64,000 nucleotides of DNA from a bacterium (GTDB lineage: Bacteria > Patescibacteriota > Microgenomatia > Daviesbacterales > UBA10151), in the NCBI GenBank assembly GCA_021786105.1, contig JAJYNW010000010.1, positions 26,301 to 90,300 on the forward strand. The letters run 5' to 3'. The notes under the pieces were generated by a model. It had not been told where the DNA came from. It ran no database searches and was given only the letters and a program-made list of their open reading frames with translations. This document shows positions 7,077 to 48,916 of this stretch, in pieces; within the stretch, counting starts at the first letter, position 1; the number at the start of each line of letters is the position of its first letter. Both the position numbers and the translations under genes were made by a program.

Positions 7077-7124
7077 TGTCGTCAGGACAATTATTTATGG
7101 ATCCCGATTTTCATCGGGATGACA
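7077..7124. repeat. short palindromic element (family termini TGTCGTCAGGAC...ATCGGGATGACA) immediately upstream of tig
   Basis: An inverted repeat ATCCCGAT-TTTC-ATCGGGAT lies inside TGTCRTC/GATGACA termini. It ends 7 nt before the tig ATG and provides AAAGGA. Confidence 0.5.
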
Positions 7125-9296: not shown

Positions 9297-9372
9297 GCCT
9301 GAGCGGTTAGCGAAGGATTGCGGTCGGAATGTGGAAGATTGCCACGTCGCCTTCGGCTTCTCGCAATGACAG
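9296..9372. repeat. ~77 nt palindromic element (CCTGAGCGGTTAGCGAAGGATTGCGG...GGAAGATTGCCACGTCGC...CTCGCAATGACAG), near-identical to the copy at 39632-39711
   Basis: Direct comparison of the two loci shows shared blocks GGAAGATTGCCACGTCGC and TCGCAATGACA. It overlaps the yqeY stop and ends 10 nt before the ybeY ATG. Confidence 0.55.
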
Positions 9373-17284: not shown

Positions 17285-18652
17285 ATGTTAAAGCTATATA
17301 ACACACTATCACGAAAAGTTGAGGACTTTGTTCCTATAAATACACCAAAGGTTGGACTTTATACTTGTGGCCCGACCGTTTATAACTTTGTCCATATCGG
17401 CAATTTAAGAACTTATATTTTTGAAGATATTTTGCAGAGGGTTTTAGAGGCTGATAGTTATGAAGTCAACAGAGTGATAAATATTACTGATATCGAAGAC
17501 AAAATTATCAAAAAAGCTGAGGAAGAAAGAGTAAGTATTGAGGTCATTACCAAGCCGTACGAGCAGGCTTTTTTGGAAAATTTACAAAAACTTAATATTA
17601 AATCAGCCAATGTTTATCCTAGGGCCACCGAGCACATTGGCAAAATGATCAAATATATTGAAGTTTTGATTGAAAAGGGTTTGGCGTATGTGGAAAAAGA
17701 TGGGTCAGTGTATTTTGATATTTCCAAATTCCCGGAATATGGGAAGTTATCTCAGCTTGATAAACGGGAAATTAAAGCCGGAGCTAGGGTAAAAGCTGAT
17801 GAATATTCCAAAGAAGATGTTGTCGATTTTGCCTTATGGAAAGCAGTCGGGTCGGATGAAATTGGTTATGATTCGCCGTGGGGCAAGGGTCGGCCGGGTT
17901 GGCATATTGAATGTTCGGTGATGAGTCAGGAATATTTGGGGGATACTTTTGATATTCACGCCGGAGCGGTTGATTTAATTTTTCCTCATCATGAAAATGA
18001 GATAGCTCAGTCTGAGGGTAAAACCGGTAAGAAGTTTGCTAATTTTTTTATTGAAGGCGAGCATTTGTTGGTAGACGGCCAAAAAATGGCCAAGTCTTTG
18101 GGTAATTTTTTCACCTTGAAGGATATTGAAGCCAAAGGATTTGACCCTTTGGCTTTCAGGTATTTGGTATTAACTGCCCATTACAGGGACAAATTAAATT
18201 TCACCTGGGAATCTTTGCAGGCTGCCCAAAATGCTTTAAATAATTTAAGGGAAATTATTCGTGATTGGCCTTCTTCTGTCATTGCGAGCCCCGAAGGGGT
18301 GCGGCAATCTTATTACCAGAAATTTATGAGTGCTGTCAATAATGATTTAAATATACCCCAAGCTTTGGCGGTAATGTGGGATATGGTCAAATCTGATAAT
18401 CCAACTTCTGCCAAAGCCAAATCAATTTTGGAAATGGATAAAATTTTAGGCTTAAAGTTAGATGAATATTTAGGGAAAAAACTGGAAATTCCGGAAGAAG
18501 TACAAAAGTTAGTTAACCAAAGGGAACAAGCGCGTAAATCTGGAGACTTCAAAAAATCAGATGAACTGCGCCATGAAATTAAAAAACTAGGTTTTGAAAT
18601 CGAAGATACTCCTCAAGGTCCCAAAATAAAAATTGACAAACAGCCCTCCTAG
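17285..18652 (+). CDS. cysS: cysteinyl-tRNA synthetase
   Basis: Class I HIGH-like (CGPTVYNFVHIGN) and KMSKS (KMAKSLGN) motifs. Confidence 0.9.
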   Translation: MLKLYNTLSRKVEDFVPINTPKVGLYTCGPTVYNFVHIGNLRTYIFEDILQRVLEADSYEVNRVINITDIEDKIIKKAEEERVSIEVITKPYEQAFLENLQKLNIKSANVYPRATEHIGKMIKYIEVLIEKGLAYVEKDGSVYFDISKFPEYGKLSQLDKREIKAGARVKADEYSKEDVVDFALWKAVGSDEIGYDSPWGKGRPGWHIECSVMSQEYLGDTFDIHAGAVDLIFPHHENEIAQSEGKTGKKFANFFIEGEHLLVDGQKMAKSLGNFFTLKDIEAKGFDPLAFRYLVLTAHYRDKLNFTWESLQAAQNALNNLREIIRDWPSSVIASPEGVRQSYYQKFMSAVNNDLNIPQALAVMWDMVKSDNPTSAKAKSILEMDKILGLKLDEYLGKKLEIPEEVQKLVNQREQARKSGDFKKSDELRHEIKKLGFEIEDTPQGPKIKIDKQPS

Positions 18653-19326: not shown

Positions 19327-19358
19327 GGTGTAGCTACACTTCCACCTCGGAGGTGGAA
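19327..19358. repeat. two adjacent perfect palindromes (GTGTAGCTACAC and TTCCACCTCGGAGGTGGAA)
   Basis: The second is related to the CACCTCGAAGG/CCTTCGAGGTG palindrome found twice inside purL. Confidence 0.4.
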
Positions 19359-19411: not shown

Positions 19412-20110
19412 GTGGAAACTGAAGTTATTACAATTGACGGGCCGACCAGTTCCGGGAAAAACAGCGTGGGTTTTTTACTGGCGCAAAAATTAGGCTACCA
19501 ATATATTGATTCCGGTTCAATTTACCGGGCCGGCAGTATTTTCGTTTTGCGGAACAATATTTCCCCAGATAGCGAAAAAGTTGCGGAAGTTTTCAAAAAT
19601 CTGCAAATAGAAACTAAAACTCAAGATCATGAGGTGAGGTTTTTGGTAAATGGGGAAGATATCACAGATCATTTGCATGATCCCGAGGTGACTAAAACTG
19701 TTCCAATTGTTGCTGCTATTGGGGAGGTTAGAGAAGAGGTTAAAAAAATCCAATACAATTTAGTAAATTCTAAAAATACGGTTATGACCGGTAGGGATAT
19801 CGGTTCAGAAATTTTTCCCGATGCCATGCATAAGTTTTATTTAACTGCTTCAGTTGAAGTAAGAGCCCAAAGGCGTTTTAAGCAGTTAGTGGAAAAAGAT
19901 CCAAAAGTAAAATATGAGGAAATTTTGAAGAGTATGGAAGACAGGGATGAGAAGGATATGACTAGAGAGGTGTCCCCCTTACGGATTCCGGAAGATGCGG
20001 TGGTGATAGATAACTCGGATTTAACTATTGAACAAACAGTGGAAAAGATGTTGAAGTATATACAATCAAATGTCATTGCGAACGAAGTGAAGCAATCTGG
20101 GTCGGGTTAA
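19412..20110 (+). CDS. cmk: cytidylate kinase (GTG start)
   Basis: P-loop GPTSSGK and CMP-binding motifs, 232 aa. Confidence 0.85.
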   Translation: METEVITIDGPTSSGKNSVGFLLAQKLGYQYIDSGSIYRAGSIFVLRNNISPDSEKVAEVFKNLQIETKTQDHEVRFLVNGEDITDHLHDPEVTKTVPIVAAIGEVREEVKKIQYNLVNSKNTVMTGRDIGSEIFPDAMHKFYLTASVEVRAQRRFKQLVEKDPKVKYEEILKSMEDRDEKDMTREVSPLRIPEDAVVIDNSDLTIEQTVEKMLKYIQSNVIANEVKQSGSG

Positions 20111-20120
20111 ACATTAACTA

Positions 20121-20156
20121 GATTGCTTCGTCACTCCGTTCCTCGCAATGGCAAGG
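20121..20156. repeat. degenerate copy of the palindromic element (GATTGCTTCGTCACTCCGTTCCTCGCAATGGCAAGG) just upstream of the M16 peptidase gene
   Basis: It shares the GATTGCTTCGTC and CTCGCAATG blocks with 32870-32903 and supplies AAGGAG upstream of the ATG at 20166. Confidence 0.4.
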
Positions 20157-23184: not shown

Positions 23185-23193
23185 TATTTCGCT

Positions 23194-23559
23194 TCAGAAT
23201 GACAAAATGTAAGGCCAAAAGATTATGATCCCCAAAATTGCGGAAGTGATAGCAGCAATTAAAACTGCCCCGGCGGAAATATCTTTGGCATACTTGGCTC
23301 TCGGGTGTTCTTTGTCTGTAAATGCATCAACTACTGCCTCGACTGCGGTATTGGTTAATTCTACGGAAATGACAAACCCGATTAAGAAGACAATAATTAA
23401 CCAGTCCTGGCGGGAAAGATTTAAAATGAGAGAGACGATAATAACAGCTAATCCTGCAACAAAATGAAATTTTAAATTTGGTTCTTCTCTTAAGGCGGCA
23501 ATAATTCCGGCGCAAGCATATTTAAAAGAGAGTATTCTCCTGTTTGCCAAATTTTCCAT
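23194..23559 (-). CDS. dgkA: diacylglycerol kinase (prokaryotic DgkA/undecaprenol kinase family)
   Basis: 121 aa, three TM helices, NTAVEAVVD signature. Confidence 0.8.
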   Translation of the reverse strand: MENLANRRILSFKYACAGIIAALREEPNLKFHFVAGLAVIIVSLILNLSRQDWLIIVFLIGFVISVELTNTAVEAVVDAFTDKEHPRAKYAKDISAGAVLIAAITSAILGIIIFWPYILSF

Positions 23560-23626: not shown

Positions 23627-25045
23627 ATGGGAAAGAGATTGAAAGAGAAATGTGGAATATTTGGAGTTTATGGAACGGGATTTGAGGCAGCCCGATTAGT
23701 TCACCCCGGGCTTTGGGCCTTGCAACATCGAGGCCAAGAATCTTCCGGAATTGCATCTTCTGACGGTAAAAAGATCTATCTTCATAAAGGCATGGGCTTA
23801 GTTTCTCACGTTTTCGGAGAAGAAGACTTAAAAAAATTAAAAGGATATTTAGCAATTGGTCATAATCGTTATTCCACCTCAGGCGATTCAATTGACTCCC
23901 ACGCCCAACCAATTTTAGAAAAAATTAATGCTAATAAATTCATTGCCTTAGTCCATAACGGCAACCTTCCCTCCACTCAAAAGTTAGCAGAATTCCTAAA
24001 GGATAAAAAGGTTAGTGCATCCGGTCTTAATGATTCGGAAATGATTACTAAGGCAATTGCAGTTTTAGTCAAAGAAGGTTTAAGTTTGGAAGCGGCTATT
24101 AAAAAAGCATACCCTTTATTTACCGGTGTATTTTGTTTGTTGATTATGAATGAGGAAAAAATAATTGCGGTCAGGGATGGTTTCGGAATCAGGCCGCTTT
24201 GTTTGGGGAAATTAAACGGAGGGTTTATTGTAGCATCTGAAACCTGTGCCTTAGACATTATCGGAGCCAAATTTTTGCGGGAGGTGAAACCTGGTGAGAT
24301 GGTTATACTTGATGATAAAGGTTTACAAGGTGTCCAGATTGAAAAAGGTCAACAAAAGCTGGATGTTTTTGAATATGTCTATTTTGCCAGACCCGACAGT
24401 ATAATTTTGGGAAAAAGCGTTGATGAAGTCAGACAGAATTTAGGCAAAGAATTGGCTCGGGAAAATCAGATCAAAGCTGATATGGTCATCCCGGTTCCCG
24501 ATTCTGCAATACCGGCAGCCATAGGTTTTTCTAAAGAGTCAAAAATCCCTTTTGAAATGGGCCTTATTAAAAACCGCTATATTCACCGAACTTTTATTTC
24601 TCCGGAAGTACATGCCCGTCATAAAATGGTCCAATTAAAGCTTAACCCGATGCCGCATGTCCTCAAAGGGAAAAAGGTGATTATTATTGATGATTCAATA
24701 GTTAGAGGAACAACTTCAAAACAAATTATTAAAATGATTAAAGATGCCGGGGCTAAAGAAGTTCATTTATTGGTTTCCTCGCCTCCGGTGAAATTCCCGG
24801 ATTTTTATGGTATCGATACTCCTAAACAAAAGGATTTGATCGCGGCAGAAAAAAATATCAAGCAGATTGCCCAGGAGTTAGGGGTAGATTCCTTGCATTA
24901 TTTATCTTATCAAGGTTTGATAAAAGCCATTGGTTTGCCTGAAAATCTACTCTGCACCGCCCTTTTTAATGGCAATTATCCTGTGGATATCGGGGAAAGA
25001 AGGAAAGAGATAGTTTATGAAAAAAATAGCAGTTTTAATATCTAA
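23627..25045 (+). CDS. purF: amidophosphoribosyltransferase
   Basis: N-terminal CGIFGV glutamine amidotransferase nucleophile and a PRTase domain (VIIIDDSIVRGTT). Confidence 0.9.
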   Translation: MGKRLKEKCGIFGVYGTGFEAARLVHPGLWALQHRGQESSGIASSDGKKIYLHKGMGLVSHVFGEEDLKKLKGYLAIGHNRYSTSGDSIDSHAQPILEKINANKFIALVHNGNLPSTQKLAEFLKDKKVSASGLNDSEMITKAIAVLVKEGLSLEAAIKKAYPLFTGVFCLLIMNEEKIIAVRDGFGIRPLCLGKLNGGFIVASETCALDIIGAKFLREVKPGEMVILDDKGLQGVQIEKGQQKLDVFEYVYFARPDSIILGKSVDEVRQNLGKELARENQIKADMVIPVPDSAIPAAIGFSKESKIPFEMGLIKNRYIHRTFISPEVHARHKMVQLKLNPMPHVLKGKKVIIIDDSIVRGTTSKQIIKMIKDAGAKEVHLLVSSPPVKFPDFYGIDTPKQKDLIAAEKNIKQIAQELGVDSLHYLSYQGLIKAIGLPENLLCTALFNGNYPVDIGERRKEIVYEKNSSFNI

Positions 25046-26966
25046 CAAAGGTACAGGTACTAATCTACAAGCAATCATTAACGGGGTAGAAAGCGGAAAA
25101 ATTCCGGCTAAAATTGCAGCGGTAATTTCTGATACACCTGAAGCGCAAGGTTTAACAAGAGCCAAAAAACACAGACTTCCAATTAAAATAGTTCCGAAAA
25201 AAGAAGGACTGTCAGCAGTATTAAAAAAGCTGAACCCTGATTATATTTGTTTGGCTGGATGGAAACAGATTATTTTGGATGAGGTGATTGAGGCATTTCC
25301 TAATCGAATTTTAAATGTTCACCCCGGGCTTATACCGGATACAATGGACGGAGTTGTTAAAAATCCGGACGGAACCAACGGTCTATGGAATAAAGGGAAA
25401 ATGACCGATAAGGCCATGCAGAACTTTTTTGATAATAAGGCAACATATGCCGGTTCAAGCATTCATTTCTTAACTTTGGAATTTGATTTCGGACCGGTAT
25501 TGGGTAGAGGTTTTGAAGAGATAAGACGCGGGGATACCGTTGAATCTTTATATTCTAGATTAAAAATCAAAGAGAATAAATTGTATGCAGAGGTTTTGGC
25601 AAAACTTTGTTCTTCCCAAACCGTCTTAATTATTGATGGAGGCGGAAGAGGGTCAGTGCTGGTTGATAAATACGGGCAAAGCGAACAAATAGGGAAAATT
25701 TTAGTTATTCCCGGTAACGATCTGATGCAAATCAATACCAAAAAGCCGGTGATGACTTACCAACATTTGAAAACTACATCAGTTGACGAAATTTTAGAAA
25801 TTTGCCAAAAAGAAAAAGTGGATTTAGTGGATGTAGCTCAGGATAATGCAGTGGAAGTTGGGTTAGTAGATAAGCTGCAAAAAAATAAAATACCGGTAGT
25901 TGGTCCAACCAGGTTAGCCGGACAAATCGAATGGGATAAAGGATGGTCAAGGGATTTTATGAGAAAATATCAAATTGCGCACCCTAAGTATTATGTTTTC
26001 TCAACGGAAAAGGATGGAATAAAATTTGCAGAAGAATCAGAAAACCCTAAATGGTTTGTGAAAGCGGCTGGTTTGGCAGAGGGTAAAGGGGTGATACCGG
26101 CAGAGAATAAAAAAGATGTAATTAACGCTATCAAGCAAATGAGTAAATTTGGCAGCTCCGGCAAAACTTACTTATTGGAGGAATGGCTAACAGGTGAAGA
26201 ATTCTCGGCTTTTGCAATTTGCGATGGGAAAACTTTTAAATTGGTAGGTTTTGCTCAAGACCATAAAAGGGTAGATGATGGCGATCAAGGTCCTAATACC
26301 GGAGGGATGGGTTGTGTGTCCAGTCCTTTAATAGTTGATAAAAATATTAAAAGCCAGATAGAGGAAATCTTTAAAAAAGCTATGGCAGGTTTAAAAAAAG
26401 AAAAAAGGCCATACCAAGGAGTTTTGTATTTGGGTGGGATAGTAGTTGGAGGAAAAACTTATGTAATTGAATTTAATGCCAGGTGGGGAGATCCGGAGGC
26501 AGAAGTAATTGTGCCGTCTATCAAAAATGATTTGTTTGATTTATCAAAGGTTATAATTTCGGGAAGGATTAAAGACTTTGATGTCAGAACAGATAACAAA
26601 GTTAGAGTGGCAGTAGCGGGTGCAGCAAAAGGTTATCCGGTTGATTATTCTAAAGTTAAAGGTAAAAAAGTGTTGGGAATTGATAAAGCTATGCAAACAG
26701 GAGTTAAAATTTATGGCGCGGGTATTAAAAAAATTGACGGAGATTTTGTAGTTAATGGTGGCAGGGTTTTATATATGGTGGCGGAAGGAAAGAATATTAT
26801 GGACGCAAGAGAAAAAGCTTATAAAGCTATGAAATTGATAAAAATTGAGGGAGATAACTTGCATTACAGAAAAGATATTGGTTGGAGGGATGTTGAGCGA
26901 ATGCGAAATCCTGAGCGAGCGAAGCGAGTCGAAGGAGAAAGGCTGAAAAATGATACAAAAAGTTAG
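25017..26966 (+). CDS. purN-purD: fused GAR transformylase (PurN, N-terminal) and GAR synthetase (PurD, C-terminal)
   Basis: N-terminal PurN motifs (NVHPGLIPD) followed by a PurD ATP-grasp, 649 aa in total. The 3' tail is encoded by a degenerate copy of the GAGCGAAGCGAG element. Confidence 0.85.
   Translation: MKKIAVLISNKGTGTNLQAIINGVESGKIPAKIAAVISDTPEAQGLTRAKKHRLPIKIVPKKEGLSAVLKKLNPDYICLAGWKQIILDEVIEAFPNRILNVHPGLIPDTMDGVVKNPDGTNGLWNKGKMTDKAMQNFFDNKATYAGSSIHFLTLEFDFGPVLGRGFEEIRRGDTVESLYSRLKIKENKLYAEVLAKLCSSQTVLIIDGGGRGSVLVDKYGQSEQIGKILVIPGNDLMQINTKKPVMTYQHLKTTSVDEILEICQKEKVDLVDVAQDNAVEVGLVDKLQKNKIPVVGPTRLAGQIEWDKGWSRDFMRKYQIAHPKYYVFSTEKDGIKFAEESENPKWFVKAAGLAEGKGVIPAENKKDVINAIKQMSKFGSSGKTYLLEEWLTGEEFSAFAICDGKTFKLVGFAQDHKRVDDGDQGPNTGGMGCVSSPLIVDKNIKSQIEEIFKKAMAGLKKEKRPYQGVLYLGGIVVGGKTYVIEFNARWGDPEAEVIVPSIKNDLFDLSKVIISGRIKDFDVRTDNKVRVAVAGAAKGYPVDYSKVKGKKVLGIDKAMQTGVKIYGAGIKKIDGDFVVNGGRVLYMVAEGKNIMDAREKAYKAMKLIKIEGDNLHYRKDIGWRDVERMRNPERAKRVEGERLKNDTKS
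26895..26940. repeat. degenerate GAGCGAAGCGAG-type element forming the C-terminal codons of purN-purD
   Basis: CCTGAGCGAGCGAAGCGAGTCGAAGG resembles the TGTCATTCTGAGC..GCGAAGAATC elements at 28590 and 36124. Confidence 0.35.
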
Positions 26967-29736
26967 AGTACAAACAATAGGGCAACAAAACATTAAAGTT
27001 TATCGACTAGAGGGAATATTAGAAAAAGACGCCAAAATTTTGGCTGAAAAATTACTATCGGAATCAATCAACCAAAGGTATGCAATTAACCGTCCAATCC
27101 ACCTCGAAGGAGTTAAAGCCCACCTTCGAGGTGTGGCTGTAATAGAAATTGCTTATAAACCAGGGGTCATGAACCCGGAAGTAACATCGATTATGAAAGC
27201 TGCTTCTGATTTGGGGATTAAACTAATTGCCTGCGATAGCTCCATGGAGTACCTTAATAAAAAGGTTTCCTTTAATCCTTTAATAGAACATATAGTGACA
27301 GAAGAACCGCAAACACTTTTAATCAAAGAAAAACAAAGTCAAACTCAAATAATCCCAATCAGAAATCTTAATGATAAAGAGCTTTTGGATTTATCCAAAG
27401 ATAAACTTTTCTTAAATTTGGAAGAAATGCAAACCATCCAAAAATATTTTCAAAAAATCAACAGAGATCCGACTGATTTAGAACTGGAAACTTTAGCTCA
27501 AACTTGGAGCGAGCACTCCGGTCATAAAACTTTTAAAGCGAAATTAATTGTCGACGGCAAAGAAAAAGAACCGCTAATCCAAAGGATCAAAAAAGAGGCT
27601 TTGAAACATAATAAAAATATTGTGTCAGCATTTGAGGATAATTCCGGGGTGATGGATTTTTATGATGGTTTCGGAATTTGCGGCAAAGTGGAAACCCACA
27701 ATGCTCCGTCAGCTATTGAACCATATGGCGGGGCAATGACCGGTTCGGGTGGGGTGTTTCGCGATATCGCGGCAACCGGAAAAGGCGCAAAAAATATAGC
27801 CTCAACCGATATCTTTTGTTTTGCGCCGGTTGATTTACCTATTGAGAAATTACCTCAAGGTTGTTTGCCGCCGGAATATTTATTAAAAAGGGTGGTAGCC
27901 GGAGTGAGGGATTACGGGAATAGAATGGGAATTTCGACTAATAACGGATCAGTGCATTTCCAGGAAGATTTTCGGGCCAGACCAACAGTGATTGTGGGGG
28001 CATACGGCATAGTGCCGAAAAAATATGCTTTAAAAGACAAGCCGAAAATTGGAGATTTGATAATTTGTGTGGGCGGGCGGACAGGCAGGGATGGAATTCA
28101 CGGAGCCACTTTTTCTTCCGGTGAAATGACTGAACGGACAATTGAAGTGCATTCTTCAGCGGTGCAAATTGGCAATGCCATTGAGGAAAAAAGAATGTTT
28201 GATGCGCTCTTGGAAGCTAGAGACAGAGATTTAATCAGGTTGATACAGGATGTCGGTGGTGGAGGATTCTCGTCAGCTGTCGGTGAAATTGGAGAAAGTT
28301 TAGGGGTATCAGTTGATATTAAAAATGCGCCGTTAAAATACCAGGGTTTAGCACCTTGGGAAATTTGGGTGTCAGAGTCCCAGGAAAGAATGGTGGTGGT
28401 TTTAGAGGAAAAGAATCTGGAAGGATTTAAAGACCTTTGCAAAAAACATAACGTGGAGATGGCAGTTTTAGGAAAGTTTGATGGCAGTAAAAAATTAAAC
28501 GTGACTTTTGGAGAGGAAGTTGTCGGCGATTTAGATATGCATTTTTTGCATAAAGGGTTACCGAAAAGAATTCTTAAAGCCACCTCTCCTGTCATTCTGA
28601 GCACAGCGAAGAATCTCGAGATTAATGAATTTAGAGATCCTTCACTAATCGTTCAGGATGACAAAATTGAAGAGCCAAAAACAGAAAAAGAATGGATTGA
28701 AGTTTTGAAAAAGGTTTTGGGTCACGGTAATGTTTGTTCAAAAGAGCCAATTGTCCGGATGTATGACCATTCGGTCCAGGGGACTAATGATTTGCAGCCC
28801 TTTTCCGGTGTAACTTTAGACGGGCCAAATGATTCTCCGGTTTTGCGGCCATTCTTGGATAAAAAATATGGCATGGTAATTTCTCATGGATTAAATCCGA
28901 TACTAAATAATATTGATCCATATTGGGGGAGTATTTGGGCAGCAACAGAAAGCTTATCAAATTTTGTGGCAGTGGGAGGAGACTATAAAGAAGCTTGTCT
29001 GATAAATAATTATATTTGGCCGTTTCCGGATGAGGAATCACTTTGGTCATTGGATAGATCTGTTGATGCAGTAGTAGATTTTATGAAAGTTTTCCAAATC
29101 CCGGTAATTTCAGGCAAGGATAGTTTGTCCTCAACTTACCGGGCAGCAAACGGCACGATTATTAAAATTCCCCCAACACTTTGTATGTCAGTTTTTGGCA
29201 GAATTCTTGATGTCGATAAAACTGTCACTGCTGATTTTAAGAAAGTTGGTTCAACAATTTTGTTGGTAGGAAAAACGGATAAAAGTTTAGGCGGATCCAT
29301 ATATTATCAAGTAAATAATTTAGAAGGAAATTCTTTGCCGAAAGTAGATTTGAAATTATTGTCAGAAGTTTTTACAGCAGTTAATAACGCAATAACAAAT
29401 GGAAAAGCATTAGCAGTTCACGATGTATCAGAAGGGGGAATAATTTCTACAATCTTTGAAATGTGTGTGGGCGGAGGGATGGGGGCAGATATCCACCTCG
29501 AAGGAGTCAAAGCCCACCTTCGAGGTGATCAGATTTTGTTTAACGAAACTGCAGGGTGTTTTATTGTTGAGGTGGAAAACAAAAAAGTCGCTGAGCGACT
29601 TTTTAAAAATATTCCTTATCACATCTTAGGAGAAACAAAAGTAGATCAAAAAATAGAAGTAAAAAATCTGTTTAAAGCCGACGTTAATGATTTGAAAAAA
29701 GCTTGGCAGGAACCAATGAGGAGGTGCTTCAAATGA
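26950..29736 (+). CDS. purL: FGAM synthase PurL with an N-terminal PurS-like extension; carries three in-frame repeat insertions
   Basis: 928 aa with PurL AIRS-domain motifs (VETHNAPSAIEPYGGA, GDYKEACLINNYIWPF). purQ follows. Confidence 0.85.
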   Translation: MIQKVRVQTIGQQNIKVYRLEGILEKDAKILAEKLLSESINQRYAINRPIHLEGVKAHLRGVAVIEIAYKPGVMNPEVTSIMKAASDLGIKLIACDSSMEYLNKKVSFNPLIEHIVTEEPQTLLIKEKQSQTQIIPIRNLNDKELLDLSKDKLFLNLEEMQTIQKYFQKINRDPTDLELETLAQTWSEHSGHKTFKAKLIVDGKEKEPLIQRIKKEALKHNKNIVSAFEDNSGVMDFYDGFGICGKVETHNAPSAIEPYGGAMTGSGGVFRDIAATGKGAKNIASTDIFCFAPVDLPIEKLPQGCLPPEYLLKRVVAGVRDYGNRMGISTNNGSVHFQEDFRARPTVIVGAYGIVPKKYALKDKPKIGDLIICVGGRTGRDGIHGATFSSGEMTERTIEVHSSAVQIGNAIEEKRMFDALLEARDRDLIRLIQDVGGGGFSSAVGEIGESLGVSVDIKNAPLKYQGLAPWEIWVSESQERMVVVLEEKNLEGFKDLCKKHNVEMAVLGKFDGSKKLNVTFGEEVVGDLDMHFLHKGLPKRILKATSPVILSTAKNLEINEFRDPSLIVQDDKIEEPKTEKEWIEVLKKVLGHGNVCSKEPIVRMYDHSVQGTNDLQPFSGVTLDGPNDSPVLRPFLDKKYGMVISHGLNPILNNIDPYWGSIWAATESLSNFVAVGGDYKEACLINNYIWPFPDEESLWSLDRSVDAVVDFMKVFQIPVISGKDSLSSTYRAANGTIIKIPPTLCMSVFGRILDVDKTVTADFKKVGSTILLVGKTDKSLGGSIYYQVNNLEGNSLPKVDLKLLSEVFTAVNNAITNGKALAVHDVSEGGIISTIFEMCVGGGMGADIHLEGVKAHLRGDQILFNETAGCFIVEVENKKVAERLFKNIPYHILGETKVDQKIEVKNLFKADVNDLKKAWQEPMRRCFK
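27097..27133. repeat. 37 nt palindromic element (CACCTCGAAGG-loop-CCTTCGAGGTG) in-frame inside purL, encoding IHLEGVKAHLRG
   Basis: It matches 29491-29527 at 36 of 37 nt inside the same gene, while the flanking protein sequences are unrelated. Confidence 0.6.
28590..28663. repeat. 74 nt MITE-like element in-frame inside purL (TGTCATTCTGAGCACAGCGAAGAATCTCGAG...TCGTTCAGGATGACA), encoding VILSTAKNLEINEFRDPSLIVQDD
   Basis: Almost identical to the intergenic copy at 36124-36196, with the same termini and internal AGAGATCCTTCACTAATCGTTCAGGATGACA. Confidence 0.6.
29491..29527. repeat. second copy of the 37 nt CACCTCGAAGG/CCTTCGAGGTG palindrome in-frame in purL
   Basis: See 27097-27133. Confidence 0.6.
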
Positions 29737-32074: not shown

Positions 32075-34014
<1,940 letters not shown>

Positions 34015-34016
34015 TT

Positions 34017-35033
34017 ATGGGAATTAAAAATTACACAATTGTAACTTTAGGTTCTCACTCCGCCCTGCAAATTTTAAAAGGGGCAAAAGACGAAGGGTTC
34101 AAAACTGCGGTCGTAGCAACTCCCAACAGAATTCCCCTTTATAAATCTTACCCAAACTTTATTGACGAAATTTTAGAGGTAAAATCCTGGAATGAGTTTC
34201 CAAAACTTGAAAGTGAGTTAGTCAAAAGAAATTGTATTGTTATTCCTCATGGATCCTTTGTGGCATATTTGGGAATGGATGAAAATAAAGAAATGAAAGT
34301 GCCTTATTTCGGAAACAAGGCAGTTTTAGATTGGGAGGAAAACCGGAAAATGCAAAGGACTTGGATGGAAGAGTCGGGGGTAAAAGTGCCGCATAGATTC
34401 AAAAGAGGAGATAAGATAGACCGGCCGGTGATTGTAAAATCCCATGGGGCCTCTGGTGGAAAAGGCTATTTTACAGCCAGAAACCAAAAAGAATTTGATG
34501 AAAAATTAAAGAAATATAATGAGGAAAAATTTATGGTTCAAGAATATGTGATCGGAGTACCGCTTTATTTTTCATTTTTCTATTCACCCTTAACAAAAAA
34601 AGTAGAAATAATGAGTATTGATAAACGGTATGAAACGAACGTTGATTCCTTAGGTAGGATTCCGGCGAAAAACCAGAGAGGGTTAAATATTGAGCCATCC
34701 TTTGAGGTGGTGGCAAATATTCCATTGGCTGTTAGGGAATCAATGTTGGCGGAGGCAGTTTCAATGGCGGAAAGGGTGGTTGAAACTTCCCGGAAACTCA
34801 TACCGGAGAAAGGCCTTTTTGGACCATTTTGTCTGGAAACAATTATTACATCAAGTGAGGAAATTTATGTAATTGAAATATCAGCTAGGATTGTTGCCGG
34901 AACTAATTTTTTCATAAATGGTTCGCCTTATACATATCTTTTGTATGATGAACCGATGTCAACAGGTAGACGGATTGCCAGAGAGATTAAAAATGCAATA
35001 AACTTAAATAAATTGAAAGAGGTGTTAGATTGA
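34017..35033 (+). CDS. purP: archaeal-type formate-dependent FAICAR synthetase (PurP family, ATP-grasp)
   Basis: N-terminal TLGSHSALQILKGAKDEGF signature typical of PurP (DUF1246/DUF1297), 338 aa. Confidence 0.7.
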   Translation: MGIKNYTIVTLGSHSALQILKGAKDEGFKTAVVATPNRIPLYKSYPNFIDEILEVKSWNEFPKLESELVKRNCIVIPHGSFVAYLGMDENKEMKVPYFGNKAVLDWEENRKMQRTWMEESGVKVPHRFKRGDKIDRPVIVKSHGASGGKGYFTARNQKEFDEKLKKYNEEKFMVQEYVIGVPLYFSFFYSPLTKKVEIMSIDKRYETNVDSLGRIPAKNQRGLNIEPSFEVVANIPLAVRESMLAEAVSMAERVVETSRKLIPEKGLFGPFCLETIITSSEEIYVIEISARIVAGTNFFINGSPYTYLLYDEPMSTGRRIAREIKNAINLNKLKEVLD

Positions 35034-36118
35034 TGAATAATTACACAATTGCTGTTTTAGGTTCTCACTCTGCTTTAGACGTTTGCCGGGGTGCAAAAGA
35101 TTTAGGATTTAGGACTTTAGTGATTTGCAAAAAGGGAAGAGAAAAAACTTACAAAGATTATTATGCTTCTAATGGCAAATTAGGTTGTGTTGATGAAGTG
35201 ATTGTGCTGGATGAATTTAAAGATATTTTAAATAAAGAGATCCAAGAAGAACTCCTTAAAAAAAATTGTATTTTTGTTCCCCACCGGTCTTTTGAAGTTT
35301 ACATCAATGATTACAATGCGATTGAGAAAAAATTTAAAGTGCCGATGTTTGGGAACAGGTTCTTATTAAAAGCGGAAGAACGGGGAGTCAAACCAAACCA
35401 ATATGATTTATTGGATGCGGCCAAAATCCGCTACCCCAAACAATTTAAAAATCCGGAAAGTATTGACCGGCTTTGTATTGTTAAAGTTTTGGAAAAAGAA
35501 CGGGGATTTGAAAGGGCATTTTTCTTTGCCGAATCTTTTGAAGAGTATAAAGTGGGAGTAGCTCATGGATTGGGTCTAGGCAAGTTTACTGAGGAGCAGA
35601 TAAAAGCAGCAGTGATTGAGGAATTTATTGTGGGGGTGCAAGTAAATTTTAATTTCTTTTATTCACCAGTAAACAAACGGCTCGAACTAATTGGGACTGA
35701 TACCAGAAGGCAAACTAATATTGAGGGTTTAACTAAATTACCATCTATTTACGAAGAAGAGTTAATTAAAAAGATTGGAGTCAAATATGAAGAAGCCGGA
35801 CATATTGCGGTGACGGTTTTAGAATCACTTTTGGAAGATGCATTCGCAATGGGGGAAAGATTTGTAGAGGCTACTCAAAAAATGGTTAAGACCGGTGTGA
35901 TTGGTCCATTTGGTTTGCAAACTATGATTACGGCTGGTCCGCCTAAAAAAGAAATAATTGTTTTTGATGTTTCACCCAGAATGCCGGGGAGCCCGGGAAT
36001 TTTTGCAACTCCGTACGGTAATTATTTATATGGTGAGCATTTATCGATGGGTAAAAGAGTCGCCATGGAAATAAAGGAAGCTTTAGAGAAAGGAGAGTTA
36101 GACAAAGTTTTAACTTAA
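35030..36118 (+). CDS. second PurP-family paralog (ATP-grasp)
   Basis: VLGSHSALDVCRGAKDLGF. It is a paralog of the upstream gene and overlaps its stop by 4 nt. Confidence 0.7.
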   Translation: MMNNYTIAVLGSHSALDVCRGAKDLGFRTLVICKKGREKTYKDYYASNGKLGCVDEVIVLDEFKDILNKEIQEELLKKNCIFVPHRSFEVYINDYNAIEKKFKVPMFGNRFLLKAEERGVKPNQYDLLDAAKIRYPKQFKNPESIDRLCIVKVLEKERGFERAFFFAESFEEYKVGVAHGLGLGKFTEEQIKAAVIEEFIVGVQVNFNFFYSPVNKRLELIGTDTRRQTNIEGLTKLPSIYEEELIKKIGVKYEEAGHIAVTVLESLLEDAFAMGERFVEATQKMVKTGVIGPFGLQTMITAGPPKKEIIVFDVSPRMPGSPGIFATPYGNYLYGEHLSMGKRVAMEIKEALEKGELDKVLT

Positions 36119-36123
36119 CATAT

Positions 36124-36196
36124 TGTCATTCTGAGGCGTAGCCGAAGAATCTCAAGATTTAGTCCAGAGATCCTTCACTAATCGTTCAGGATGACA
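36124..36196. repeat. 73 nt MITE-like element (TGTCATTCTGAGG...TTCAGGATGACA) between purP2 and purH
   Basis: Near-identical to the in-frame copy at 28590-28663. Its 3' end (AGGATGACAG) lies 7 nt from the purH ATG. Confidence 0.6.
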
Positions 36197-36203
36197 GAAA
36201 CAT

Positions 36204-37742
36204 ATGAAAACTGATAAACGATTCGCCTTGCTGAGTGTTTATGATAAAACCGGAATTGCTGATTTTGCTAAAGTGCTCCAAAAGTTAGAATATACCATCA
36301 TTTCCACAGGCGGCACACTAAATGTTCTAGAAGAAAACGGCGTTAAGGTAATACCGATTGATGAAATTACCGGTAACCCTAGGGATTCGTTTGACGGCCG
36401 GATGAAAACCATTAGTTTCCAAATTGAGTCAGGTATTTTATTTGATAGAAAAAATTTCAAGCATGTGACAGAAGCTAATAAACTGAATGTGCCGCAAATC
36501 GATATGGTGGTTTGTAATCTTTACCCGTTTGAAGAAAAACCCGGTATTGAAACAATTGATGTGGGTGGTCCAACTATGATCAGGGCAGCTGCCAAAAATC
36601 ATAGCAATGTTTTAGTTGTAGTTAGCCCGGATGATTATGGATTAGTAGCTGATGCTTTGGAGAAAGGAAAGGTAACTGATAAATTAAGAAAGGAATTAGC
36701 ATCAAGAGCCTTTTACCATTTATCGTTTTATGATTCCCAAATTGGCAACTTTTTCTCTGATAAAAAATTTCCTAAGGAATTAACAGTACCACTTAGAAGA
36801 TTAAGCGTTTTGCGGTATGGGGAAAACCCGCACCAGGCCGGTGCTTTATATTTAATGCCAAAGGCTAATTCTCCTTTAGGTAAATTGAAACATCTTTGGG
36901 GTAGGGAATTATCCGGTACAAATATCGGAGATATCTATACCGGCTTGGAAACTGTTAGGCAATTTAGCGAACCGGCGGCAGCAGTGATGAAACATTTGAG
37001 TCCTTGCGGGATAGCTACCGGTAAGACGGCCGAAGAAGCATTAGACAGAGCAGTAAAAGCAGATCCGGTTTCCGCCTTTGGCGGGGTAGTTGTTTTGAAT
37101 AAACCAATGGACTTGAAGGCGGCCAAAATTATTGCCACTTTTAAAAACGAAAAAGAAGGTAATACGGATATCGTGGCAGTGCCGGAAATTTCTGCAGATG
37201 CTTTGGAGCTTTTGAAAAAAGTTAGAAAAACTATGGGAGTTTATACCTTTGGTAAGATTCCTGCAAACAGGACTGAAAATTGGGATTTGAAATATTTTGC
37301 CGGGGCAGTACTGTTGCAGGATTATGATGATAATGTAGAAAAAAGTTTTGCTAGTTGGAAAGTCGTGACTAAGAAAAAGCCAACTCAAAAACAGCTGGAG
37401 CTAATGCATTTTGGTTTTAAGGCAGTAAAGGCGGTTAAATCAAATTCTGTTTTGGTGGTGGATAAAAATATCCCAATGACGCGAGGAATTGGTTCCGGAC
37501 AAACTTCCCGGATTGGAGCTACTAAAATTGCTTTGGAACAAGCCGGGGATTTGGCCAAAAGTGGTATTCTAATAAGTGACAGCTTTTTTCCGTTTGATGA
37601 TAGCGTTAAGATGGCGGTGAAATTTGGCATTGGGGTAATCGCGGAACAGGGCGGATCGATAAATGACCAGATGTCCGTGATAGCTGCTGATGAGGCTGGT
37701 ATTGCAATGGTGTTTACCGGAAGGAGGGCATTCAGACACTAA
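36204..37742 (+). CDS. purH: bifunctional AICAR transformylase/IMP cyclohydrolase
   Basis: MGS-like IMPCH N-terminal domain (LSVYDKTG, ISTGGT) and an AICARFT C-terminal domain, 512 aa. Its stop overlaps the purB ATG (TAATG). Confidence 0.9.
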   Translation: MKTDKRFALLSVYDKTGIADFAKVLQKLEYTIISTGGTLNVLEENGVKVIPIDEITGNPRDSFDGRMKTISFQIESGILFDRKNFKHVTEANKLNVPQIDMVVCNLYPFEEKPGIETIDVGGPTMIRAAAKNHSNVLVVVSPDDYGLVADALEKGKVTDKLRKELASRAFYHLSFYDSQIGNFFSDKKFPKELTVPLRRLSVLRYGENPHQAGALYLMPKANSPLGKLKHLWGRELSGTNIGDIYTGLETVRQFSEPAAAVMKHLSPCGIATGKTAEEALDRAVKADPVSAFGGVVVLNKPMDLKAAKIIATFKNEKEGNTDIVAVPEISADALELLKKVRKTMGVYTFGKIPANRTENWDLKYFAGAVLLQDYDDNVEKSFASWKVVTKKKPTQKQLELMHFGFKAVKAVKSNSVLVVDKNIPMTRGIGSGQTSRIGATKIALEQAGDLAKSGILISDSFFPFDDSVKMAVKFGIGVIAEQGGSINDQMSVIAADEAGIAMVFTGRRAFRH

Positions 37743-39151: not shown

Positions 39152-39642
39152 CAAAAGTAATGATCATAACTGGTTCTGATTCTGATTTGCCGGTGATGAA
39201 GGAGGTGGCAAAAGTTATGGAGGAATTTGGGGTAAGTTTCGAAATGACAATTTCTTCAGCGCACCGATCACCGGAAAGAACCAAGGAGCTAGTGGAAAAT
39301 GCCAAAAGCAGCGGAATAAAAGTAATTATTGCCGGGGCGGGAATGGCAGCACATCTTGCCGGCGTATTGGCGGCAGAATTTCCTTTGCCGGTGATTGGAG
39401 TACCTCTCCAAAGCGGAGTTTTGCATGGGATAGATGCTTTACTTTCGACAATGCAAATGCCCTCGGGGATTCCGGTAGCAACTGTAGCGATAAACGGAAC
39501 AAAAAATGCCGGGATTTTGGCAGTGCAAATTTTAGCAACTTCGGATAAAAGTTTGGAAGAAAAGCTGGTGGAATACAAAAAGAAATTAGCTGAAGGTGTT
39601 TTAGAAAAGGCAAAAAAATTGGCACAAGAAATGTCGTCCTGA
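39148..39642 (+). CDS. purE: AIR carboxylase / N5-CAIR mutase PurE
   Basis: 164 aa with SAHR and GAGMAAHLAGV motifs. No purK is present in the window. Confidence 0.9.
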   Translation: MTKVMIITGSDSDLPVMKEVAKVMEEFGVSFEMTISSAHRSPERTKELVENAKSSGIKVIIAGAGMAAHLAGVLAAEFPLPVIGVPLQSGVLHGIDALLSTMQMPSGIPVATVAINGTKNAGILAVQILATSDKSLEEKLVEYKKKLAEGVLEKAKKLAQEMSS

Positions 39643-39711
39643 GTGATTAGCCGAAAGATTTCCCACGGACTGGGAAGATTGCCACGTCGCTACGCTCCTC
39701 GCAATGACAAG
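39632..39711. repeat. ~80 nt palindromic element (TGTCGTCCTGAGTG...GGAAGATTGCCACGTCGC...CCTCGCAATGACA), paralog of 9296-9372, overlapping the purE stop and the purC start
   Basis: Direct comparison with 9296-9372. It supplies the ATG that gives the track ORF its spurious MTRY extension. Confidence 0.55.
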
Positions 39712-47827: not shown

Positions 47828-47896
47828 AGAATTTATTATATACTTTTCTTAAAGGAGACTATAACTTATTTTGTTTCGAGGATCGCTTAGGGAAGA

Positions 47897-48829: not shown

Positions 48830-48916
48830 TAAAATAACATTAAAGTATTGGCCAATATTTGTCAATTGATTAATGCTAATTTGACAAGACAGCTTGGCAG
48901 TGGGATAGTAAAATTA

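What the first reader, a model, noticed from the sequence alone, without database searches (positions are those of the whole stretch)
28590..28663. 74 nt MITE-like element translated in-frame inside purL, nearly identical to an intergenic copy upstream of purH
The purL segment TGTCATTCTGAGCACAGCGAAGAATCTCGAG...AGAGATCCTTCACTAATCGTTCAGGATGACA encodes PVILSTAKNLEINEFRDPSLIVQDD. It matches intergenic 36124-36196 base for base over most of its length, including both terminal inverted repeats. An element that is non-coding at one site is therefore coding at another without breaking an essential purine-biosynthesis ORF.
Basis: seen in the sequence. Interest (0 to 1): 0.65.

Follow-up and report, generated by a model that had tools for sequence, protein, structure and literature searches.

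The report
Palindromic repeat translated inside purL
A 74-base hairpin-forming repeat, of a kind scattered through many bacterial genomes, sits in frame in a flexible linker of the purine enzyme PurL of an ultra-small (Daviesbacteria) bacterium and adds 25 amino acids without breaking the gene; this is real, but it is the same phenomenon already described in Rickettsia and other bacteria.

Summary
Window 28590-28663 lies inside an uninterrupted 928-aa PurL ORF and encodes PVILSTAKNLEINEFRDPSLIVQDD. A second copy (36124-36196) lies in the spacer before purH. They share 61 of 74 positions, so "nearly identical" overstates it.

The element is not a classical MITE. It is an inverted dimer of two ~30-nt REP-type hairpin units: a TGTC head, a stem starting with AT, and a CTC tail. 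This matches the CGTC/TGTC-tagged REP superfamily of Di Nocera et al. 2013, which includes Rickettsia RPE-4/-6 and Neisseria dRS3. I found no target-site duplication and no transposase.

About 30 of 33 PurL orthologs lack the segment. It lies in the hypervariable linker between PurL's two halves. The same repeat type occurs in more than 100 species of most bacterial phyla. In related Microgenomates it is in frame in pheS, valS, tsaD and rplA.

Copies at unrelated loci resemble each other more than the purL copies of different lineages do. The linker therefore looks like a recurrent landing or replacement site.

Verdict: real, and a new member of a known kind. Interest is moderate. The mobilising enzyme is unknown, and translation is inferred, not shown.

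The parts
28590..28663 (+). REP-type inverted dimer, read in frame inside purL (aa 547-571, PVILSTAKNLEINEFRDPSLIVQDD)
28590..28617 (+). 5' unit: TGTC head, stem ATTCTGAG/CGAAGAAT (6 Watson-Crick pairs plus a tandem G.A/A.G), loop CACAG, tail CTC
   Evidence: within-unit covariation
28618..28633 (+). 16-nt spacer between the two units. This is the part that varies in length (in multiples of 3) between the purL copies of different lineages.
28634..28663 (-). 3' unit in inverted orientation. Read on the - strand it is TGTC-ATCCTGAA-CGATTAG-TGAAGGAT-CTC. It is identical to 36167-36196 and to the purL copy of P0007.
26950..29736 (+). purL (FGAM synthase II, 928 aa), the host gene. The insert lies between AIRS_C (ending at aa 519) and the second PurM-like half (from about aa 598).
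36124..36196 (+). Second dimer copy (73 nt), intergenic between the PurP-like ORF (35030-36118) and purH (36204-37742). An orthologous copy with compensatory stem changes is in L004; L006 has an empty site.
32866..32902 (-). Single REP unit of the sister subfamily (TGTCATTGCGAG...GCAATCT), in frame in purA ([11 protein letters not shown]). L004 has a different REP type at the same junction; L006 has none.
18277..18311 (+). Single REP unit in frame in cysS (SVIASPEGVRQSY), replacing the DEPKIGCAE of orthologs
20072..20153 (+). REP dimer (ATTGCGA subfamily) spanning the last codons and stop of the cytidylate-kinase ORF and the spacer before the M16 peptidase gene
39632..39709 (+). REP dimer whose head supplies the TGA stop of purE (ORF ending at 39642); purC follows
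23190..23204 (-). REP head remnant (TGTCATTCTGAAG) supplying the TGA stop of the DAGK ORF 23194-23559
9336..9371 (-). Single REP unit (TGTCATTGCGAGAAGCCGAAGGCGACGTGGCAATCT) at the 5' edge of the YbeY ORF, upstream of the Pfam-matched part
7098..7124 (-). Single textbook CGTC-1-like unit (TGTC-ATCCCGAT-GAAA-ATCGGGAT-CCA), just upstream of the trigger-factor gene

Best explanation
The 74-nt segment is a copy of a dispersed, non-autonomous palindromic repeat. It is a REP-type inverted dimer, REPIN-like in build.

Anatomy. It has two ~30-nt units placed back to back with their TGTC heads outward. Each unit forms its own small hairpin: an AT-initiated 8-pair stem containing a tandem G.A/A.G, a 5-7-nt loop and a CTC tail. 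The pair can also fold into one long hairpin.

Family. It belongs to, or is a close variant of, the CGTC/TGTC-tagged REP superfamily. That family is found across bacteria and includes Rickettsia RPE-4/-6 and Neisseria dRS3.

How it persists in purL. One copy landed in, or replaced an earlier repeat in, the hypervariable surface linker joining the two PurM-like halves of PurL. It survives there for two reasons. This length class (2 mod 3) joins the only stop-free frame of its 3' unit (DPSLIVQDD) to a stop-free frame of its 5' unit (VILS...). And the linker tolerates about 25 extra, probably disordered, residues. The insert is therefore carried through transcription and translation as neutral or nearly neutral 'selfish DNA in a gene'.

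What is shown: repeat identity, anatomy, insertion relative to orthologs, intact frame, dispersal, and recurrence in other genes.

What is inferred: that the insert is translated; that copies move as whole dimers through a single-stranded hairpin intermediate without target duplication; and that an unidentified enzyme moves them.
For: Insertion relative to orthologs:
- In a 34-sequence alignment only P0002 and P0007 share the peptide. P0003 has a different REP dimer (VIPADAGIQ...DPRLRGDD) at the same site. The other ~30 have a 25-33-aa gap.

Location:
- The insert falls between the Pfam domains.
- It lies in a gapped linker when aligned to T. thermophilus PurL 3viu.
- It coincides with a low-confidence coil at 549-572 in the AlphaFold model.

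Repeat family:
- The window has 14 heads of this type: 4 dimers and 6 singlets.

Unit hairpin under selection:
- ATYCT/AGRAT covary within a unit in 110 copies, with 2 discordant.
- The orthologous intergenic copy in L004 has compensatory changes in both units.

No target-site duplication.

Match to published CGTC-REP rules and to intragenic dimers encoding 20-30 aa.

Evidence that inserts are translated:
- The purL copies are 74, 86 and 110 nt, differing by 12 and 36 nt.
- All nine intragenic copies (purL x3, valS x2, tsaD x2, pheS, rplA) have core length 2 mod 3, the same strand and the same frame. Intergenic copies fall in all three length classes.
- purL shows strong purifying selection: 75% nt identity overall but 55% at third codon positions.

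Mobility as whole dimers:
- The window purL copy is 91% identical to a copy between L10- and L7/L12-like ORFs of another organism. It is 79% and 62% identical to the purL copies of P0007 and P0002.
- The P0007 purL copy is closest to a tsaD copy, at 84%.
Against: - There is no transcript or peptide evidence, so translation is inferred.
- No mobilising enzyme was found. There is no transposase domain in the ORFs I scanned in the window: purine cluster 25.0-39.2 kb, eight ORFs between 6.5 and 32.7 kb, and twenty between 40.7 and 63.5 kb. ORFs at 1-6.5 and 11.7-17.3 kb, and several shorter ones, were not scanned. No gene family is enriched near 120 copies. The source paper also reports none for CGTC REPs.
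- Loop length (5 and 7 nt), tail (CTC rather than CCA) and the G.A pairs in the stem deviate from the published CGTC consensus. I could not see that paper's figure of consensus sequences.
- The 74-nt core alone would shift the frame, and the exact inserted unit cannot be delimited because empty-site linkers are not alignable.
- The AlphaFold model is poor overall (mean pLDDT 65), so 'disordered loop' rests on weak structural evidence.
- Single insertion versus repeated insertion is not resolved, because the PurL tree backbone is star-like.
Confidence: 0.85

Rival explanations
1. Single ancient insertion. The dimer entered purL once in an ancestor of several Daviesbacteria lineages and has been inherited vertically. 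Most relatives lost it. Its arms stay identical because the DNA or RNA hairpin itself is under strong purifying selection, not because of repeated insertion or replacement.
For: - The junctions are homologous: ACCTCTCC|TGTC and GACA|AAAT in both the window and L002.
- The intergenic purH copy and the purA insertion are shared at orthologous positions with L004.
- The P0002 and P0007 purL copies share the spacer CTCGCGAATGCGAG...CAAACAAGTTGAG.
- The arms are 44/44 and 42/44 identical, against 55% and 51% identity at third codon positions.
Against: - The three carriers were monophyletic in none of 200 NJ bootstraps, and each groups with empty-site orthologs.
- Each purL copy is closer to a copy at an unrelated locus than to the other purL copies.
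- At purL and purA the same junction holds different REP subfamilies in the window and in L004. Point mutation is unlikely to produce that at about 25% divergence.
Confidence: 0.3
2. Exapted element. The insert has acquired a host function. It could act as a protein linker or interaction peptide in PurL, or as an mRNA hairpin that tunes translation or decay within the pur operon.
For: - The hairpin is stable: -31 kcal/mol, z = -5.5.
- The insert is retained in three lineages, always in frame.
- REP hairpins are proposed post-transcriptional regulators (PMC3733652).
Against: - About 30 of 33 orthologs work without it.
- The same sequence is intergenic elsewhere and sits in unrelated proteins.
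- Conservation is at the nucleotide level, including synonymous positions.
- The encoded segment is predicted to be coil at low confidence.
Confidence: 0.1
3. The segment is removed before the mature protein is made, as an intron, an intein or by translational bypass.
For: It is a discrete insertion with strong secondary structure, and Patescibacteria are known for introns in rRNA and tRNA genes (titles found).
Against: - 74 nt is far too short for a group I or II intron, and 25 aa is too short for an intein.
- Rfam gives nothing at gathering threshold in the whole window, and only chance-level hits (E > 2) on the element.
- The insert is stop-free and in phase.
- The strict 2-mod-3 length class of all intragenic copies would not be needed if the segment were excised.
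Confidence: 0.03
4. Artefact or ordinary sequence: either an assembly chimera, or native PurL linker sequence that happens to resemble an intergenic stretch.
For: The source is metagenome-assembled and repeats can mis-join contigs. The linker is hypervariable.
Against: - The gene is identical in three separately assembled contigs.
- Diverged orthologs from other samples carry an element at the same site.
- The 31-mer match has zero chance expectation.
- The family is found across bacteria.
Confidence: 0.02

Closest known systems
CGTC/TGTC-tagged REPs (Di Nocera, De Gregorio & Rocco 2013, BMC Genomics 14:522; includes Neisseria dRS3 and Rickettsia RPE-4/RPE-6)
   Same: - Unpaired 4-nt head (TGTC is a listed variant of CGTC).
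- Stem of 8-9 pairs beginning with A-T and T-A.
- Short tail.
- Mostly inverted dimers that can fold separately or as one long hairpin.
- Dispersed, mostly intergenic near gene ends, sometimes supplying stop codons.
- A minority are intragenic, where dimers encode 20-30 aa.
- No associated transposase known.
- The P0003/L004 insert at the same purL site (VIPADAGIQ...DPRLRGDD) reads like that paper's CGTC-1 peptides (VIPAKAGI, DSRFRGND).
   Different: - The stem is ATTCTGAG/CGAAGAAT with a tandem G.A instead of a fully paired ATTCCCGC-type stem.
- Loops are 5 and 7 nt, against 4-5.
- The tail is CTC, not CCA.
- The host is a CPR/Microgenomates bacterium, and the subfamily occurs in far more phyla than the 5 reported in 2013.
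- I could not check it against the four published family consensus sequences, because the figure is not held.
Rickettsia palindromic elements, RPE-1 and relatives (Ogata et al. 2000 Science; 2002 Genome Res; as summarised in PMC10969869)
   Same: Palindromic repeats inserted in frame into unrelated housekeeping genes of a small-genome bacterium. They are retained in the ORF and thought to sit at surface-exposed, tolerant positions. The same families also occur in non-coding DNA.
   Different: RPE-1 is about 100-150 bp, was reported to encode a conserved peptide, and is restricted to Rickettsia. The element here is 68-110 bp, is built of two REP units, and belongs to a family found across bacteria.
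REPINs mobilised by RAYT (Y1/HUH) transposases (Bertels & Rainey 2011; Nunvar et al. 2010, PMC2817692)
   Same: An inverted doublet of REP units forms a hairpin. The doublet, including its spacer, behaves as the replicating unit. Singlets look like decayed doublets. There is no target-site duplication. Copies persist at orthologous sites.
   Different: RAYT-associated REPs carry a GTAG-type head. Here the head is TGTC, and no RAYT or other Y1 gene was found in the DNA I could examine.
Classical bacterial MITEs (e.g. Correia, ERIC, Nezha)
   Same: Short, non-autonomous and multi-copy, with terminal inverted repeats. They are occasionally intragenic and form in-frame fusions.
   Different: MITEs have target-site duplications and termini matching a parent IS. 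Neither is seen here.

Membership tests
CGTC/TGTC-tagged REP superfamily (PMC3733652) | Unpaired tetranucleotide head CGTC (variants TGTC, CCTC) at one end of each unit | tested here: met
   TGTC sits at both outer ends of both window copies. The 126 genome-scan copies were selected by a pattern that begins with this head and ends with its complement, so they do not test this feature independently.
CGTC/TGTC-tagged REP superfamily (PMC3733652) | Stem of 8-9 bp whose first two pairs are A-T and T-A | tested here: met
   The stems are ATTCTGAG/CGAAGAAT and ATCCTGAA/TGAAGGAT. Each has 8 positions: 6 Watson-Crick pairs plus a tandem G.A/A.G. Within-unit covariation is 110 concordant to 2 discordant.
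CGTC/TGTC-tagged REP superfamily (PMC3733652) | Loop of 4-5 nt | tested here: inconclusive
   The loop is 5 nt in the 5' unit and 7 nt in the 3' unit. Many copies across bacteria carry extra mini-hairpins in the loop.
CGTC/TGTC-tagged REP superfamily (PMC3733652) | 3-nt unpaired tail, consensus CCA | tested here: inconclusive
   A 3-nt tail is present but reads CTC. The textbook CCA tail is seen in the unit at 7098-7124 and in the L004 units.
CGTC/TGTC-tagged REP superfamily (PMC3733652) | Units mostly paired as inverted dimers with a spacer; dispersed multi-copy family; some intragenic copies | tested here: met
   The window has 4 dimers and 6 singlets. The exact 3' unit occurs in 28 metagenome stretches, at about 20 distinct sites. 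Intragenic copies occur in purL, purA, cysS, valS, tsaD, pheS and rplA.
MITE in the strict sense | Target-site duplication flanking the terminal inverted repeats | tested here: not met
   Matching flanks are at chance level in 126 copies: 8 observed against 7.9 expected for k = 2, and 2 against 2.0 for k = 3.
MITE in the strict sense | Termini shared with a full-length IS encoding the transposase | not tested
   No IS or transposase domain appeared in the window ORFs I scanned, but part of the window (1-6.5 and 11.7-17.3 kb) was not scanned. Nothing was enriched near 120 copies. The whole genome could not be examined.
REPIN-RAYT system | Inverted REP doublet forming a hairpin, replicating as a unit | tested here: met
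   The fold gives z about -5. Dimers with the same spacer occur at non-homologous loci.
REPIN-RAYT system | Single-copy RAYT (Y1 transposase) gene flanked by the cognate REPs, with a GTAG-type head | tested here: not met
   The head is TGTC, not GTAG. No Y1_Tnp domain appeared among the ORFs scanned. Absence from the whole genome cannot be tested with these tools.
Rickettsia palindromic elements (RPE) | In-frame insertion of a palindromic repeat in housekeeping ORFs, retained in the product | tested here: inconclusive
   In-frame retention in the ORF is shown. Retention in mRNA and protein cannot be tested here.
Rickettsia palindromic elements (RPE) | Sequence membership in an RPE family | not tested
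   No RPE sequences were aligned. The only link is through the published statement that RPE-4/-6 are CGTC-type REPs.
Intein or self-splicing intron | Splicing domains or a catalytic RNA core | tested here: not met
   The insert is 25 aa / 74 nt. Rfam has no family at threshold, and the best hits on the element have E > 2. Pfam reports only PurL domains.

The most novel reading that the evidence does not exclude
Microgenomates may carry an active, still unidentified system that moves TGTC-headed REP dimers and repeatedly re-targets or overwrites the same few permissive linker sites in essential genes (purL, purA, valS, tsaD).

Three observations point that way:
- Different REP subfamilies occupy the same junction in sister lineages.
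- The arms are identical across species whose synonymous sites are about 45% diverged.
- The copies most similar to each other sit at unrelated loci.

If so, resident REPs act as landing pads or conversion templates. This family, found across bacteria and with no known transposase, would then be a continuing source of new linker peptides even in the most reduced bacterial genomes.
Probability: 0.3. Interest if true: 0.65.

Novelty: new member of a known kind. Interest (0 to 1): 0.45.

Why it matters
This extends the Rickettsia 'selfish DNA inside protein-coding genes' phenomenon to the candidate phyla radiation, whose ~1-Mb genomes are usually thought to be stripped of repeats.

One REP architecture (TGTC head, ATTCTGAG-type stem) is shared by more than 100 species across most bacterial phyla. 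Its mover is still unknown.

Annotators should expect spurious peptides such as VILSEAKNL, SFASLRMT or DPSLxxQDD, and 20-40-aa 'insertions' in housekeeping proteins of CPR bacteria.

The recurrent occupation of one PurL linker by different REP subtypes offers a tractable system for three questions: how such repeats choose sites, whether they replace each other in place, and how proteins acquire new linker sequence.

Tried and rejected
- Rfam: nothing at gathering threshold in the whole window, and only chance-level hits on the element.
- Hammerhead ribozyme: I considered reading CUGAG...GAAG as a hammerhead core. The commonest variant, CUGAGCGAAGCGAAG, lacks the CUGANGA/GAAA spacing, and Rfam is silent, so I dropped it.
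- Literature search for the literal repeat sequences returned only unrelated primers and eukaryotic hits. A search for 'MITE' plus 'candidate phyla radiation' returned arthropod-mite papers. Nothing was found on REPs in Patescibacteria.
- Target-site duplication: counts are at chance level.
- Conserved neighbouring gene: all-against-all BLAST of 2,498 ORFs from 120 loci found only common families such as response regulators.
- Transposase in the window: none among the 47 ORFs scanned. ORFs at 1-6.5 kb and 11.7-17.3 kb were not scanned.
- Generic unit finder: my own script had a background of about 4 hits per shuffled window and missed the ATTGCGAG subfamily. I used it only to describe stems, not for counting.
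- First tree attempt timed out. The second, an NJ tree, has a star-like backbone, so it argues against but cannot exclude a single origin.
- AlphaFold with a 34-sequence alignment gave a mediocre model (mean pLDDT 65). I used only its local low confidence, and ran no fold search.
- No covariance model was built, because variable loop inserts make the units hard to align.
Full report
**1. Observation**

The quoted sequence is at window 28590-28663. It lies inside an uninterrupted ORF, 26950-29736 (+, 928 aa). Pfam identifies that ORF as the small-type FGAM synthase PurL: FGAR-AT_linker, then AIRS/AIRS_C at aa 230-519, then a second PurM-like half from about aa 598. The segment is read as PVILSTAKNLEINEFRDPSLIVQDD (aa 547-571).

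A second copy lies at 36124-36196. It sits in the 85-nt spacer between a PurP-like ORF (DUF1246/DUF1297, ending at 36118) and PurH (starting at 36204).

The two copies share the first 12 nt and the last 31 nt exactly. In all, 61 of the 74 purL positions are identical, and the centre differs by substitutions and two indels.

The match is far beyond chance:
- The 31-mer occurs twice against 0.00 expected.
- The head motif occurs 7 times against 1.1 expected.
- Both copies fold into long hairpins with z-scores near -5 on either strand.

The gene, insert included, is identical in two other separately assembled contigs: L007 from ENA and L008 from GCA_027424735.1, with 0 differences in 2787 nt. Names attached to homologs place the organism in Candidatus Daviesbacteria (Microgenomates, CPR).

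**2. It is an insertion relative to orthologs, in a tolerant place**

I aligned 34 PurL sequences that are 65-80% identical to the query.
- Only P0002 and P0007 carry the same kind of peptide at this position: PVILSTFAALSVNSAKNLSRMRVSNKLRDPSLVVQDD and PVILSVAKNFSRMRDSNKLRDPSLIVQDD.
- P0003 carries a different one, VIPADAGIQ...DPRLRGDD.
- The remaining ~30 have a 25-33-residue gap and a short, hypervariable linker.

The site lies between the two PurM-like halves. It aligns to a gapped, poorly conserved linker of T. thermophilus PurL, 3viu. It also coincides with one of the low-confidence coil segments (549-572) of an AlphaFold model. That model is mediocre overall, with mean pLDDT 65.

**3. Anatomy: a REP-type inverted dimer, not a classical MITE**

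The element has three parts.
- A 28-nt unit at 28590-27617... specifically 28590-28617: TGTC-ATTCTGAG-CACAG-CGAAGAAT-CTC.
- A 16-nt spacer.
- A 30-nt unit in inverted orientation. Read on the - strand it is TGTC-ATCCTGAA-CGATTAG-TGAAGGAT-CTC.

Each unit is itself a hairpin, with six Watson-Crick pairs around a tandem G.A/A.G.

The hosts include Chloroflexota, Acidobacteriota, Proteobacteria, Bacteroidota, Firmicutes, Planctomycetota, Nitrospirota, Omnitrophota, Armatimonadota and several CPR groups.

The 126 copies all show the same plan: head, ATYCT, GAG, a variable mini-hairpin (most often GCGAAGC or GCGNAGC), GA, AGRAT, tail, and a variable spacer.

Within a unit the Y and R positions covary almost perfectly: 63 C/G, 47 T/A and only 2 discordant. 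The local unit hairpin is therefore the conserved structure, not merely the long inter-unit one.

GCGNAGC is the classic very stable DNA mini-hairpin (PMC13037366). That hints at a single-stranded DNA form. It is only a hint.

Flanking sequences show no target-site duplication. Matches are at chance level for k = 1-3.

**4. Match to the literature**

Di Nocera et al. 2013 (PMC3733652) define 'CGTC-tagged REPs' as follows:
- an unpaired head CGTC, often TGTC;
- an 8-9-bp stem almost always starting with A-T pairs;
- a 4-5-nt loop and a 3-nt tail;
- mostly inverted dimers;
- occasional intragenic copies, in which dimers encode 20-30 aa;
- no associated transposase.

They equate Rickettsia RPE-4/-6 and Neisseria dRS3 with this class.

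Their supplementary list of encoded peptides (VIPAKAGI, SFPRKRES, DSRFRGND) matches the P0003 insert at the purL site. It also matches the L004 insert in purA.

That supplement even records REP dimers, of the GTAG type, inside the purL of Opitutus terrae.

The MITE review PMC10969869 summarises the Rickettsia RPE precedent for in-frame insertion.

The window element fits the head, stem-start, dimer and distribution rules. It deviates in loop length, in its tail (CTC), and in the G.A pairs in the stem. I could not see the figure with the four family consensus sequences.

**5. The phenomenon is general in this genome and its relatives**

The window holds 14 heads of this type, making 4 dimers and 6 singlets.

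Single units lie in frame in two other genes:
- In purA the window reads [12 protein letters not shown]004 has VIPAKAGI-type units at the very same junction, GAGCTYCCTCCTTC|YGTCATT. L006 lacks the stretch.
- In cysS the window has SVIASPEGVRQSY where orthologs have DEPKIGCAE.

Dimers span the end of cmk and the stop codon of purE. A head remnant supplies the stop codon of the DAGK gene.

A metagenome scan for the exact 28-nt 3' unit found 28 stretches at about 20 distinct sites. The in-frame copies among them lie in these genes:
- PheS;
- ribosomal protein L1, in its N-terminal extension;
- a class-I aaRS, at one shared site in two organisms, between the catalytic and anticodon-binding domains (I call it valS, but Pfam does not resolve the amino acid);
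- TsaD, at one shared site in two organisms;
- the P0002 and P0007 purL genes.

**6. Evidence that the insert is translated (inferred, not shown)**

Of the three frames of the 3' unit, only GAT CCT TCA CTA ATC GTT CAG GAT GAC is free of stops. Of the three frames of the 5' unit, TGT... and GTC... are open. This follows from direct reading of the sequence.

All nine intragenic copies use the VI(L/P)S...DPSLIVQDD frame on the coding strand. Their core lengths are 74, 86, 110, 71, 68, 86, 110, 80 and 68 nt, all equal to 2 mod 3. Eight distinct intergenic copies have lengths 73, 88, 92, 75, 82, 81, 105 and 70, which fall in all three classes.

The three purL copies differ by 12 and 36 nt.

purL itself is under purifying selection: 75% nt identity overall against 55% at third codon positions between the window and L002.

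Because 74 is not a multiple of three, the DNA actually gained must include one or four more bases. A pyrimidine-rich run (CTCC, CTTC) precedes the head at many sites.

**7. History at the purL site**

Between the window and L002 the 44 arm positions are 44/44 identical, and against L001 they are 42/44 identical. Flanking purL DNA is 76-77% identical.

The three carriers never formed a clade in 200 NJ bootstraps. Each groups with empty-site orthologs, although the backbone is star-like.

The window purL copy is most similar (68/75, 91%) to a copy that lies between L10-like and L7/L12-like ORFs of another organism (I recognised those ORFs by eye). It is less similar to the purL copies of P0007 (79%) and P0002 (62%). 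The P0007 purL copy is closest to a tsaD copy (84%). An rplA copy is closest to a valS copy (93%).

On the other side, the intergenic copy before purH is present at the orthologous position in L004 with compensatory changes in both unit stems. L006 has no spacer there at all.

Taken together:
- whole dimers move, and some copies persist for long periods;
- the PurL linker, like the purA site, has been occupied more than once or overwritten in place.

I put about 0.3 on the alternative of one ancient insertion followed by many losses.

**8. Mechanism**

Shown: a dispersed palindromic repeat lies in frame in a variable inter-domain linker, and it has no target duplication.

Inferred: it moves through a hairpin-forming single-stranded intermediate, in the manner of IS200/IS605 elements and REPIN-RAYT systems, driven by an enzyme not yet identified.

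Searches for that enzyme were negative:
- No transposase domain was found in the window ORFs I scanned: the purine cluster at 25.0-39.2 kb, eight ORFs between 6.5 and 32.7 kb, and twenty ORFs between 40.7 and 63.5 kb. ORFs at 1-6.5 and 11.7-17.3 kb were not scanned.
- No gene family is enriched near 120 copies.
- The published class is likewise without a transposase.

Intron, intein and bypass readings have no support (and the length-class argument in section 6).

**9. Verdict**

The precise label is an intragenic REP dimer of the CGTC/TGTC-tagged class. It is the CPR counterpart of Rickettsia's protein-coding palindromes, so it is a new member of a known kind.

Two things are new, as far as the held literature shows. 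The host group is new. So is the breadth of this ATTCTGAG subfamily, which appears in most bacterial phyla rather than the five reported in 2013. The recurrent or replaced occupancy of the same linker sites is the most interesting loose end.

Noticed in passing
window 27097-27133 and 29491-29527 (both inside purL); also 19343-19355: A second, unrelated 37-nt palindrome (ATCCACCTCGAAGGAGTYAAAGCCCACCTTCGAGGTG, 97% identical) occurs twice in frame in the same purL gene. It encodes IHLEGVKAHLRG at aa 50-61 and 848-859. Orthologs have it variably at both sites (IHLGGVKAHPRG, HLGGVTSSHLRGDRM...). The first site is a low-pLDDT segment. A related small palindrome, CACCTCCGAGGTG, is intergenic at 19343.
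   Followed up: partly
window 32866-32902 (-), purA; L004 18480-18530: The window and L004 share the same insertion junction in purA but carry different REP subfamilies (ATTGCGAG against ATTCCTGC). L006 has no insert. The same pattern holds at the purL site, which suggests in-place replacement or conversion of REPs.
   Followed up: partly
window 18277-18311 (+), cysS: A single REP unit is in frame in cysteinyl-tRNA synthetase. It replaces about 9 native residues, for a net gain of 5 aa relative to three orthologs.
   Followed up: partly
window 20072-20153, 39632-39709, 23190-23204: REP units overlap gene ends. They provide the last 13 codons and stop of cmk, the TGA stop of purE, and the TGA stop of the DAGK gene. 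The right ends (CAATGGCA, CAATGACA) also create ATG codons in front of the next gene, but other gene callers did not use these as starts.
   Followed up: partly
L006 about 11590-11625 and L005 (purL linker of empty-site orthologs): Where the REP dimer is absent, the PurL linker DNA looks like a degenerate tandem heptamer, (GTCGTCA)n. It gives peptides such as SRQSSAVSYQT. Other orthologs have internally repeated linkers (EFRVQSSEFRV, KFKVQSSKFKV). The linker seems to be built from simple repeats in general.
   Followed up: no
L004 12417-12446 (inside its purL, C-terminal part) and 14588-14614: L004 carries further REP units inside purL and inside or near guaA. L005 and L006, which are equally related, have essentially none in 15-23 kb. 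REP load therefore differs sharply between sister lineages.
   Followed up: no
window 25017-26966, 26950-29736, 34017-36118: The purine cluster has unusual gene architecture. There is a PurN-PurD fusion (Formyl_trans_N plus GARS). PurL has a ~150-aa N-terminal extension that carries a PurS domain (PF02700) in several homologs. Two tandem archaeal-type PurP-like genes (DUF1246/DUF1297) sit next to a bacterial PurH.
   Followed up: no
window 46259-50041: Three consecutive large ORFs (522, 322 and 397 aa; two on the - strand, one on the +) have no Pfam match at E <= 1e-5.
   Followed up: no
window 1-64000: No Rfam family reaches its gathering score anywhere in the 64 kb. That means no tRNA, riboswitch or leader was detected.
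   Followed up: no
L077 7560-7876; L016 7581-7724; L051 2329-3231: In some other phyla (a gammaproteobacterium, a Lachnospiraceae MAG) the same dimers occur in tandem arrays of two or three at about 75-115-nt spacing, or as exact duplicates about 800 nt apart.
   Followed up: no
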